DNA of 1,547 nucleotides, from the sequence record OR845860.1; one strand, given 5' to 3'. The stretch comes from Escherichia phage ECO95 1-6-1. The notes under the pieces were generated by a model that had not been told where the DNA came from, searched no databases, and saw only the letters and a list, made by a program, of their open reading frames with translations. Shown here in pieces: positions 1,361 through 1,495 of this stretch; positions within the stretch are counted from its first letter, which is position 1; each line of letters starts with the position of its first letter. Both the position numbers and the translations under genes were made by a program.

Positions 1361-1365
1361 TTTGT

Positions 1366-1371
1366 TCTCCT
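1366..1371 (-). promoter_or_regulatory. Shine-Dalgarno / ribosome-binding site of the transposase gene
   Basis: Plus-strand ctcctt is AAGGAG on the minus strand, followed by AACAAA (6 nt) and the ATG at 1360..1358. Confidence 0.65.
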
Positions 1372-1386
1372 TATTTATGCAAGGAG
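1366..1386 (-). other. Inverted repeat able to form an mRNA hairpin that occludes the transposase RBS
   Basis: Plus 1366..1371 ctcctt and plus 1381..1386 aaggag are exact reverse complements. In the minus-strand transcript this reads 5'-CUCCUU-GCAUAAAU-AAGGAG-AACAAA-AUG: a 6-bp stem with an 8-nt loop in which the SD is the 3' arm. Folding energy was not computed. Confidence 0.35.
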
Positions 1387-1495
1387 TATTTGATCATATG
1401 TAAGCTGTGAAAAACAGTTTTAGATAATAAGGAATATCTCAATTATTGAACATTTAGTGCGAATTATTTAGTACAAAAAGTGAACTTTTGATGAT

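What the first reader, a model, noticed from the sequence alone, without database searches (positions are those of the whole stretch)
1361..1390. Possible RBS sequestration upstream of the transposase start
The transposase SD (AAGGAG, plus 1366..1371) has an exact complementary partner 9 nt further upstream in the mRNA (CUCCUU, from plus 1381..1386). Any transcript starting upstream of 1386, including read-through from outside the element, could fold so that the SD is paired. RBS occlusion that damps activation by external transcription is an established mechanism in IS10 and IS50; whether it operates here is inference.
Basis: partly seen in the sequence, partly recalled or inferred. Interest (0 to 1): 0.4.

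Follow-up and report, generated by a model that had tools for sequence, protein, structure and literature searches.

The report
Ribosome-site hairpin in ISEc1 leader
A short RNA hairpin that hides the ribosome-binding site of the ISEc1 (H-repeat) transposase gene is real and conserved across this transposon family, and it most likely stops the element from being switched on by transcription reading in from neighbouring genes, a trick already known from IS10.

Summary
The SD AAGGAG is at plus 1367-1372 and the anti-SD at 1381-1386. The stem is 7 bp (CUCCUUG/UAAGGAG), with a 6-nt loop and dG37 of -6.5 kcal/mol.

The window is ISEc1 (H-repeat, ISAs1 family; IS = 214-1504, transposase 224-1360, minus strand). 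Any RNA starting upstream of 1386 folds with the SD paired (accessibility <=0.01).

The stem is under selection. Relatives down to about 45% protein identity keep an SD-containing stem at the same place with different sequences, including two-sided changes. Cognate arms beat swapped arms (p=5e-5).

Directly 5' of the stem lies CATATGATCAAAT, identical to the Dam-overlapped -10 region of IS10 pIN. In IS10, RNA-IN starts 7 nt after TCAAAT. The same geometry here puts +1 at about 1381/1380, just 3' of the anti-SD arm. Native mRNA would then escape (SD opening cost 0.7 kcal/mol) while read-through RNA is blocked (6.9).

Upstream genes are co-oriented in 16 of 17 contexts.

No experimental TSS could be found. 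An IS200-like stem present in every transcript therefore remains a live rival.

Verdict: a new member of a known kind of control, of moderate interest.

The parts
1367..1373 (-). 3' arm of the stem, UAAGGAG. It contains the Shine-Dalgarno AAGGAG (1372..1367), 6 nt upstream of the ATG.
   Evidence: Sequence. Paired with 1380-1386 at P about 0.99. Best duplex with the 16S tail is -9.3 kcal/mol.
1374..1379 (-). Hairpin loop CAUAAA.
   Evidence: MFE structures.
1380..1386 (-). 5' arm, CUCCUUG (anti-SD). It occupies the stretch between the TCAAAT hexamer and the predicted IS10-like +1.
   Evidence: Truncating the 5' end to 1384 or 1382 abolishes the stem.
1388..1400 (-). Conserved box CATATGATCAAAT. 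It reads as TG (1396,1395), n, then hexamer TCAAAT (1393..1388), i.e. a putative extended -10. The Dam site GATC is at plus 1392-1395. The alternative hexamer TATGAT is 1398..1393.
   Evidence: Unique in the window, with 0 of 200 shuffles matching. Identical to IS10 nt 62-74. Conserved as T-R-T-G-n-T-C-w-w-A-T across the family, also where GATC is lost.
1380..1381 (-). Predicted native transcription start, by analogy with IS10 RNA-IN (7th-8th nt after TCAAAT). Inferred, not mapped.
   Evidence: The IS10 geometry is derived from PMC5006887 and the verified IS10 sequence. The SD opening energy falls from 6.9 to 0.7 kcal/mol with this 5' end.
1358..1360 (-). Transposase start codon ATG.
   Evidence: ORF list.
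224..1360 (-). ISAs1-family transposase gene (378 aa; DDE_Tnp_1_assoc + DDE_Tnp_1).
   Evidence: RefSeq annotation 'ISAs1-like element ISEc1 family transposase'.
1485..1504 (-). Left terminal inverted repeat (C)AGGGAAAGATCATCAAAAG. It carries a second GATC (plus 1493-1496). Base 1504 is substituted in this copy.
   Evidence: BLAST breakpoints at 214/1503. IR alignment and K-12 junctions.
214..232 (+). Right terminal inverted repeat CAGGGCAAGATTACGAAAG. It contains the transposase stop codon (224-226) and has GATT instead of GATC.

Best explanation
The feature is the translation-initiation control region of the ISEc1 (H-repeat, ISAs1-family) transposase. A 7-bp stem pairs the Shine-Dalgarno sequence (1367-1373) with an anti-SD arm (1380-1386). 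RNAs that begin upstream of the arm carry both arms, above all read-through from the co-oriented Rhs, toxin-immunity or O-antigen genes that usually lie upstream. In those RNAs the SD is occluded and the transposase is poorly translated.

The element's own weak promoter is most likely the extended -10 TGaTCAAAT (1396-1388), which overlaps a Dam GATC site and is identical to IS10 pIN. It would start transcription at about 1381/1380, just 3' of the anti-SD arm. The native mRNA would then lack the arm and have a free SD. This is IS10/IS50-style fold-back inhibition, with the inhibitory arm placed in the stretch between the -10 hexamer and +1.

Shown here: the stem, its thermodynamic dominance, and its conservation with compensatory changes. 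Inferred: the native start site, Dam sensitivity, and the effect on translation.
For: (1) Folding. SD accessibility is <=0.01 for 5' ends from 1387 to 1543 and 0-0.07 with the real flanks of K-12 yhhI, ydcC and ybfD. It rises to about 0.7 with a 5' end at 1381. The opening energy of the SD core is 6.9 kcal/mol (read-through) against 0.7 (start at 1381).

(2) Conservation with change. The window has CUCCUUG/UAAGGAG. K-12 copies and E. fergusonii show G.U to A-U. ybfD shows C-G to U.G. Salmonella and Dickeya have UCUCCU/AGGAGA. Serratia, Raoultella and Citrobacter have UCCAUU/AAUGGA, with a base added on both sides. Psychrobium has GACUCCU/AGGAGUC and Psychromonas GGCUCCU/AGGAGCC (A-U to G-C). 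Photobacterium has ACUCCC/GGGAGU and Aliivibrio ACCUUU/AAAGGU, among others.

(3) Statistics. Cognate 5'-arm and SD-region pairs average -5.8 kcal/mol against -4.0 for swapped pairs, and 0 of 20,000 permutations reached the observed sum. Twelve of 34 lineages have shuffle p<0.05, where 1.7 are expected.

(4) Family-wide opening energies. Medians are 5.7 (read-through), 4.6 (start at the stem base) and 1.2 kcal/mol (IS10-like start), n=33, Wilcoxon p=2.6e-8.

(5) The 13-mer CATATGATCAAAT is identical to IS10 nt 62-74. In IS10 the Dam site overlaps the pIN -10, and RNA-IN starts at nt 81. This follows from RNA-OUT being 69 nt, ending at nt 47, and overlapping RNA-IN by 35 nt (PMC5006887).

(6) The conservation pattern T-G-n-T-C-w-w-A-T fits an extended -10 at the IS10 position. 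The 'n' is A, G or T. The base that would be -11 of the rival hexamer TRTGAT is A or G.

(7) In 15 of about 27 lineages the 5' arm ends within 2 nt of the predicted +1. In about a third it extends back over the hexamer.

(8) Some stems reach -12 to -16.5 kcal/mol. That is too stable for a transposase to be made unless some transcript lacks the 5' arm (inference).

(9) Positive control. The same pipeline reproduces IS10 fold-back inhibition: AUG accessibility is 0.00 for 5' ends at nt 1-50 and rises once the 5' end is at nt 62-81.

(10) Upstream genes are co-oriented with the transposase in 16 of 17 contexts.
Against: No experimental TSS exists for any copy in the datasets I could read. The putative -10 has C at -11 and no recognisable -35, and the simple promoter scan finds nothing in the leader on this strand. 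The overlapping hexamer TATGAT is a better consensus match. It would place +1 at 1386/1387, at the base of the stem, and the native mRNA would then also be occluded. The IS10 analogy transfers RNA polymerase placement from one promoter to another with a different -35 and a different stretch between the -10 and +1. The lineages compared are related, so the statistics are not fully independent. Many Rhs-linked contexts are probably inherited rather than independent insertions. All structure evidence is in silico.
Confidence: 0.55

Rival explanations
1. The stem is a constitutive translational brake, as in IS200. The native transcript starts at or upstream of the stem base, either from TATGAT with +1 at 1386/1387 or from an unrecognised promoter nearer the IS end. 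Every transposase mRNA then carries both arms, and the stem simply keeps transposase synthesis very low. With a +1 at the stem base it could also act as a 5'-terminal stabilising hairpin.
For: TATGAT (1398..1393) matches the -10 consensus 5/6 and becomes TATAAT in L088. With that start the SD stays closed, with an opening energy of 6.7 kcal/mol in the window and a family median of 4.6. SD sequestration inside the native 5'UTR has been shown experimentally for IS200 (PMC4513863). ISEc1/H-repeat copies appear almost silent, since no sense TSS or 3' end is listed in the K-12 datasets.
Against: In about half the lineages the hexamer is TGTGAT, with G at the essential -11 position. In IS10 the identical sequence does not use TATGAT, because the mapped start is 12 nt after it. 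In about a third of lineages the stem extends 5' of this start, over the TCwwAT hexamer, which would be pointless in such a transcript. Stems of -12 to -16.5 kcal/mol would essentially abolish translation if always present. A 5'UTR role does not explain the strict sequence conservation of the box.
Confidence: 0.28
2. The palindrome works on the opposite (plus) strand as the terminator of a short antisense RNA resembling RNA-OUT. That RNA would start from the promoter-like site at 1298-1327 (+) and cover the start codon and SD.
For: The scan reports TTTCCA-18-GATAAT at 1298-1327 (+), and a terminator-like stem at 1367-1386 (+) followed by TATTTGATCA. IS10 and IS200 both use antisense RNAs over the same region.
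Against: Promoter-like sites are no more frequent than in shuffles (5 vs 4.3). The two hexamers fall on invariant Trp-Lys and Ile-Ile codons, so their conservation is uninformative. The U-tract is weak, and in lineages with TCTTAT or TCATAT boxes it becomes UAUAAGA or UAUAUGA. No Term-seq 3' end is listed near the yhhI or ydcC start. This model does not explain why the stem always includes the SD.
Confidence: 0.05
3. It is a chance palindrome, or a DNA-level protein-binding site, with no RNA function.
For: Six-bp hairpins are common in the window (5 vs 3.8 expected). The single-window probability of an anti-SD hexamer nearby is only about 0.006.
Against: The stem is kept with different sequences in many lineages. 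Cognate arms beat swapped arms at p=5e-5. A sequence-specific protein site would not tolerate wholesale replacement of both arms.
Confidence: 0.04
4. It is an RNA thermometer that frees the SD at high temperature, which would link to reports that ISAs1 moves at elevated temperature in Aeromonas (recalled from memory).
For: Only the general resemblance to an SD paired in a short stem.
Against: Predicted SD accessibility stays at 0.00-0.02 from 20 to 50 C for RNAs that carry both arms. The stem is perfectly paired, without the mismatches typical of thermometers.
Confidence: 0.01

Closest known systems
IS10/Tn10 fold-back inhibition plus the Dam-sensitive pIN promoter (Davis, Simons & Kleckner 1985, as cited in PMC13181058; PMC5006887)
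   Same: An upstream segment present only in read-through RNA pairs with the translation-initiation region. The native promoter overlaps a Dam GATC site. The 13 nt CATATGATCAAAT are identical. My folding pipeline reproduces the IS10 effect.
   Different: In IS10 the inhibitory arm (about nt 52-61) lies upstream of the -10 and pairs with the AUG region. Here the arm lies between the -10 hexamer and the predicted +1 and pairs with the SD itself. IS10 belongs to the IS4 family, not ISAs1. IS10 also has the RNA-OUT antisense RNA, for which there is no evidence here. The ISEc1 start site and Dam effect are untested.
IS50/Tn5 transposase control (Dam sites in the T1 promoter, PMC4265352; occlusion of the translation start in read-through transcripts, Schulz & Reznikoff 1991, recalled from memory)
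   Same: Promoter GATC methylation lowers transposase transcription. Read-through RNAs are translationally blocked by secondary structure.
   Different: The sequences, family (IS4) and geometry all differ. IS50 also makes an inhibitor protein from a second start.
IS200 tnpA 5'UTR stem-loop (PMC4513863)
   Same: A near-consensus SD is sequestered in a stem by an upstream anti-SD. In IS200 this has been shown experimentally to block 30S binding.
   Different: In IS200 both arms are inside the native transcript, so repression is constitutive. External transcription is handled there by a separate terminator. Here the geometry suggests that the native RNA escapes. IS200 is a Y1/HUH element and is unrelated.
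ISPpu9 5'UTR structure (PMC8450116)
   Same: Transposase translation is limited by leader secondary structure that hides the RBS.
   Different: ISPpu9 relies on two sRNAs to open and close a long structured 5'UTR. Nothing comparable is seen here.

Membership tests
ISAs1 family insertion sequence (ISEc1 / H-repeat) | Single transposase with DDE_Tnp_1_assoc and DDE_Tnp_1 domains, about 370-380 aa | tested here: met
   Pfam PF13808 (E=5e-34) and PF01609 (E=7e-29) on the 378-aa ORF. It is 95-97% identical to proteins named ISAs1 family transposase.
ISAs1 family insertion sequence (ISEc1 / H-repeat) | About 1.3-kb element bounded by short terminal inverted repeats and found in several genomic contexts | tested here: met
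   Matches break at 214/1503 in thousands of E. coli genomes, with a median of 5 copies per genome, annotated 'ISAs1-like element ISEc1 family transposase'. The IRs CAGGGAAAGATCATCAAAAG and CAGGGCAAGATTACGAAAG and the differing K-12 flanks were checked.
IS10/IS50-type fold-back inhibition (read-through-selective occlusion of the RBS) | A segment upstream of the translation-initiation region is complementary to it and forms the dominant structure in RNAs that contain it | tested here: met
   In silico only. It is conserved with compensatory changes.
IS10/IS50-type fold-back inhibition (read-through-selective occlusion of the RBS) | The native transcript starts 3' of the inhibitory arm, so only externally initiated RNA carries it | not testable with these tools
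   No TSS is listed for yhhI, ydcC or ybfD in any held dataset. It is inferred from the identical IS10 pIN box, which gives +1 at about 1381/1380.
IS10/IS50-type fold-back inhibition (read-through-selective occlusion of the RBS) | Read-through transcripts are translated much less well than native ones | not testable with these tools
   This needs reporter fusions or toeprinting.
Dam-regulated transposase promoter (IS10, IS50) | GATC overlapping the -10 region of the transposase promoter | tested here: inconclusive
   GATC at 1392-1395 overlaps both candidate hexamers and sits in a 13-mer identical to IS10 pIN. GATC is enriched in family leaders, 38 of 79 against 10.2 expected. That the box is the promoter is not demonstrated, and some lineages keep the box without GATC.
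Dam-regulated transposase promoter (IS10, IS50) | Higher transposase transcription in dam- or hemimethylated DNA | not testable with these tools
   No data found.
IS200-type constitutive SD-sequestering 5'UTR stem | Both arms lie within the native 5'UTR | not testable with these tools
   This depends on the unmapped TSS.
Intrinsic (Rho-independent) terminator | G+C-rich stem followed directly by a U-tract, conserved, with a mapped 3' end | tested here: not met
   On the sense strand the stem is followed by AACAAAAUG. On the antisense strand it is followed by UAUUUGAU, a tract that is not conserved. No Term-seq 3' end is listed.
RNA thermometer | SD stem that melts in the physiological temperature range | tested here: not met
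   Predicted SD accessibility is <=0.02 up to 50 C.

The most novel reading that the evidence does not exclude
The ISAs1 family, over 40-100% protein identity and several bacterial phyla, and the IS4-family element IS10 may share one compact regulatory cassette. It would consist of an extended -10 with a Dam site (TRTGATCwwAT), whose own RNA copy and the few bases between it and +1 serve as the anti-SD or anti-start arm. Promoter choice by itself would then decide whether the mRNA can be translated. This would be either an ancient module inherited from a common IS4/ISAs1 ancestor or a striking convergence. It would also explain how these elements tolerate living co-oriented inside Rhs and O-antigen operons.
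Probability: 0.35. Interest if true: 0.55.

Novelty: new member of a known kind. Interest (0 to 1): 0.42.

Why it matters
ISEc1/H-repeat copies are present in every complete E. coli genome searched, about 5 per genome. They sit, co-oriented, inside Rhs toxin loci and O-antigen clusters, yet nothing has been published on how their transposase is controlled.

If the model is right, it explains how an element that is constantly transcribed from outside stays quiet. It would extend fold-back inhibition and Dam coupling from IS10/IS50 to a whole further IS family. It also gives simple, testable predictions: start sites at ATG-21/-20, arm mutations that act only on read-through RNA, and de-repression in dam mutants.

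For annotation, it flags a recognisable motif (the TGATCwwAT box followed by an SD stem) that marks functional left ends of ISAs1 elements.

Tried and rejected
(1) An experimental TSS could not be found. The Cappable-seq GTF was truncated in storage. Thomason 2015 and the 1998 IS review are not held. Romero 2014, Kim 2012, SMRT-Cappable-seq, Conway 2014 and Mendoza-Vargas 2009 have no entry for yhhI, ydcC or ybfD, or for their coordinates.

(2) I first misread Adams et al. supplementary file 2 as a TSS list. It tabulates Rho-termination regions, so the 'antisense TSS' idea was withdrawn.

(3) The two ribosome-profiling and structure papers that name yhhI and ybfD only exclude them as duplicate genes.

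(4) Rfam has no relevant family.

(5) A column-wise covariation count on a MAFFT alignment (A2) was abandoned. One-nt register shifts of the 5' arm are not alignable without using the structure. The fixed-window test of cognate versus swapped arms was used instead, and no covariance model was built.

(6) The apparent freeing of the SD by the window's own flank (5' end at 1547) is a single-position outlier. All other external 5' ends keep the SD paired.

(7) The thermometer, terminator, antisense-RNA and chance readings were each examined and given low weight.

(8) L096/L097 (66% identity) and several distant lineages (cyanobacteria, some Dehalococcoidia) show no clear box or SD stem. The feature is widespread but not universal.

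Full report
WHAT THE WINDOW IS

The window carries one complete copy of ISEc1, the 'H-repeat' of E. coli Rhs loci, an ISAs1-family insertion sequence, on the minus strand.

- The only long ORF (224..1360, minus, 378 aa) has the DDE_Tnp_1_assoc and DDE_Tnp_1 domains.
- All 5,426 complete E. coli genomes searched contain matches, with a median of 5 places per genome, annotated 'ISAs1-like element ISEc1 family transposase'.
- In other genomic contexts the similarity breaks at window 214 and 1503.
- Comparison with the K-12 copies (yhhI, ydcC, ybfQ) shows terminal CAGGG at both ends. The element therefore spans 214-1504, with imperfect inverted repeats, and base 1504 is substituted in this copy.
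- The leader from the left end to the ATG is 144 nt, so the finding lies deep inside the element.

THE OBSERVATION

On the mRNA strand the leader ends ...CAUAUGAUCAAAUA CUCCUUG CAUAAA UAAGGAG AACAAA AUG.

- The SD AAGGAG is plus 1372..1367.
- The anti-SD CUCCUU is 1386..1381, and 8 nt separate the hexamers.
- A G.U pair extends the stem to 7 bp with a 6-nt loop.
- The isolated hairpin has dG37 = -6.5 kcal/mol.
- It forms with probability about 0.99 for every 5' end from 1386 to 1543 and disappears when the 5' end is moved to 1384 or beyond.
- The one case where the SD looked free (5' end at 1547) is a single-position outlier caused by a GGGGG run in the flank.
- With the real flanks of three K-12 copies the SD stays paired, with accessibility 0-0.07.

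In this window alone the evidence is modest. An exact anti-SD hexamer that close has a probability of 0.006 in shuffles, and 6-bp hairpins in general are not enriched.

COMPARATIVE EVIDENCE

I fetched leaders of relatives at 66-97% protein identity by exact-protein look-up and 80 more distant loci at 40-74% identity.

The enterobacterial relatives all keep a stem at the same place, with different sequence:

- K-12 copies and E. fergusonii: CUCCUUA/UAAGGAG (G.U to A-U)
- ybfD: CUUCUUA (C-G to U.G)
- Salmonella and Dickeya: UCUCCU/AGGAGA
- Citrobacter europaeus: AUCUCUU/AAGGAGAU
- Serratia, Raoultella and Citrobacter: UCCAUU/AAUGGA, with a base added on both sides

Distant gamma-proteobacterial elements repeat the architecture with unrelated stems:

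- Psychrobium: GACUCCU/AGGAGUC
- Psychromonas: GGCUCCU/AGGAGCC (a clean A-U to G-C exchange against Psychrobium)
- Vibrio thalassae: AGCUCCUA/UAGGAGCU
- Photobacterium: ACUCCC/GGGAGU
- Aliivibrio: ACCUUU/AAAGGU
- Shewanella, Halomonas and others also fit

I ran a test that does not use the structure to align. It takes a fixed 11-nt window after the hexamer and compares it with the region before the start codon.

- Cognate pairs average -5.8 kcal/mol against -4.0 for swapped pairs.
- None of 20,000 permutations reached the observed sum.
- Twelve of 34 lineages beat 95% of their own shuffles, where 1.7 are expected.

The lineages are related, so these numbers are not exact probabilities. At least ten distinct arm pairs contribute. 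The feature is not universal: L096/L097 and several cyanobacterial or Dehalococcoidia elements lack a clear stem.

THE BOX AND THE QUESTION OF THE NATIVE START

Directly 5' of the stem lies CATATGATCAAAT (minus 1400..1388), which is unique in the window.

It is conserved family-wide as T-R-T-G-n-T-C-w-w-A-T. This holds even where the GATC is lost: TGGTCA in Halomonas and Dehalococcoidia, TGTTCA in L009. GATC is enriched in family leaders, in 38 of 79 where 10.2 are expected.

The 13-mer is identical to nt 62-74 of IS10. I first recalled this from memory and then verified it at 100% identity over 138 nt against R100 and other plasmids.

For IS10 the literature states that the Dam site overlaps the pIN -10. 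It also states that RNA-OUT is 69 nt, ends at nt 47 and is complementary to RNA-IN over 35 nt. Together these place the RNA-IN start at nt 81, the 7th base after TCAAAT (PMC5006887).

Applying the same spacing here gives +1 at U1381 or G1380, immediately 3' of the anti-SD arm. The arm would then be absent from native mRNA and present in any RNA that starts further upstream.

| 5' end | SD-core opening cost, window (kcal/mol) | Family median, n=33 (kcal/mol) |
|---|---|---|
| Read-through | 6.9 | 5.7 |
| Stem base | 6.7 | 4.6 |
| IS10-like start | 0.7 | 1.2 |

The paired Wilcoxon p for read-through against the IS10-like start is 2.6e-8. The same pipeline reproduces the known IS10 fold-back inhibition, which serves as a positive control.

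Three further points favour the IS10-like start over the rival hexamer TATGAT, which would put +1 at 1386/1387.

1. In half the lineages the rival hexamer is TGTGAT, with G at the essential -11 position. The variable base of the box (A, G or T) falls on the 'n' of TGn.
2. In about a third of lineages the stem extends 5' over the TCwwAT hexamer, which makes sense only in RNAs that start upstream of it.
3. Some stems reach -12 to -16.5 kcal/mol, which would abolish translation if present in every transcript. This last point is inference.

Against the IS10-like start:

- The hexamer has C at -11, there is no -35, and the simple scan sees no promoter.
- No experimental TSS for any copy could be found in the held datasets.

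CONTEXT

This copy lies downstream of, and co-oriented with, an Rhs core, toxin and immunity array, and upstream of nfrB and nfrA.

Across the K-12 copies and the relatives, the upstream gene is co-oriented with the transposase in 16 of 17 contexts. Read-through into the element is therefore the normal situation. Many of these contexts are probably inherited together rather than being independent insertions.

RIVALS

- **IS200-like constitutive stem.** SD sequestration inside a native 5'UTR has been shown experimentally for IS200 (PMC4513863), and this remains the main alternative (about 0.28).
- **Plus-strand terminator for an RNA-OUT-like antisense RNA.** The U-tract is weak and not conserved, the promoter-like hexamers sit on invariant codons, and no 3' end is recorded.
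- **RNA thermometer.** The stem stays closed to 50 C.
- **Chance or a DNA-binding palindrome.** Both are contradicted by the compensatory changes.

COMPARISON WITH WHAT IS KNOWN, AND NOVELTY

Occlusion of translation signals in read-through RNA is established for IS10 (Davis et al. 1985, as cited in PMC13181058) and, from memory, for IS50. Dam control of the IS10 and IS50 promoters is established (PMC5006887, PMC4265352). SD sequestration is established for IS200.

Searches of the held literature found nothing on expression control in ISEc1, H-rpt, IS1358 or the ISAs1 family.

The finding is therefore a new member of a known kind of control. It has one distinctive twist: the anti-SD arm occupies the stretch between the -10 hexamer and +1, and sometimes the hexamer itself. 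There is also an unexpected 13-nt identity with IS10 pIN.

Interest is moderate (0.42). The mechanism is familiar, but the family-wide pattern is clean, undescribed and directly testable.

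Noticed in passing
window 1388-1400 (minus): CATATGATCAAAT is identical to nt 62-74 of IS10, the pIN -10 region with its Dam site, although IS10 belongs to the IS4 family and ISEc1 to the ISAs1 family. This is either common ancestry of a promoter module or convergence.
   Followed up: partly
window 1493-1496 (left IR) vs 222-225 (right IR): The left terminal inverted repeat contains a GATC (AGGGAAAGATCATC), while the right one has GATT. Only three GATC sites lie inside the 1291-bp element (932, 1392, 1493), and two of them are in the regulatory left end. 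Distant relatives also carry GATC in the terminal repeat (CAAGATCA). This asymmetric Dam sensitivity of the ends is reminiscent of IS10 and IS50.
   Followed up: partly
window 224-232: The transposase stop codon (224-226) lies inside the right terminal inverted repeat, so the ORF runs to within 10 nt of the element's end.
   Followed up: no
window about 595 (+), equal to K-12 MG1655 3625143 (-), inside yhhI: Adams et al. (bioRxiv 10.1101/2020.07.18.207399, suppl. file 2) list a strong Rho-dependent termination region (Rho score 64.8) for transcription antisense to yhhI. This is probably read-through from the convergent yhhJ. The element therefore also receives antisense transcription from its right side, and Rho stops it inside the transposase gene.
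   Followed up: partly
loci L081-L098, L099-L103: In 16 of 17 contexts the gene upstream of the transposase is on the same strand. These are Rhs core, toxin or immunity genes, or O-antigen and polysaccharide genes. ISEc1-like elements sit co-oriented inside operon-like arrays. This may partly reflect inheritance together with the Rhs locus.
   Followed up: partly
window 1298-1327 (+) and 1367-1395 (+): A 9/12 promoter-like site (TTTCCA-18-GATAAT) faces the transposase start from inside the gene. The SD palindrome followed by TATTTGAT looks terminator-like on that strand. Together they could give an antisense RNA of about 60 nt. The hexamers coincide with invariant Trp-Lys and Ile-Ile codons, so conservation cannot decide, and no transcript data were found.
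   Followed up: partly
window 1-213 and 1505-1547: The flanks are the nfrB upstream region (1-213) and the end of an Rhs toxin/immunity array (beyond 1504). The arrangement Rhs array, then ISEc1, then nfrB-nfrA is shared by most E. coli genomes: 4,912 genomes cover >=80% of the window.
   Followed up: partly
L017 1450-1490, L013, L029, L060, L003/L018: In several distant relatives the stem extends back over the TCwwAT hexamer itself. For example, in L017 UCAAAUAGCC pairs with GGCUAUUUGA right before the AUG, at -16.5 kcal/mol. The sequence next to the start codon has evolved to match the conserved box, not the other way round.
   Followed up: partly
L100 6537-6590 (K-12 yncI): The divergent second H-repeat type in K-12 (the yncI pseudogene) keeps GGTGATCAAAAT and a weaker CCUUU...AAAGG pairing with a long loop. 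L088 has lost the GATC, and its box reads TATAATAAACT, which improves both candidate -10 hexamers.
   Followed up: no
window 1361-1379 (minus): The loop and the spacer around the SD are A-rich (AUAAAUAAGGAGAACAAAAUG), with several A-R-N triplets. This resembles the Hfq distal-face site reported on the IS10 RBS (PMC5006887). It was not analysed further.
   Followed up: no
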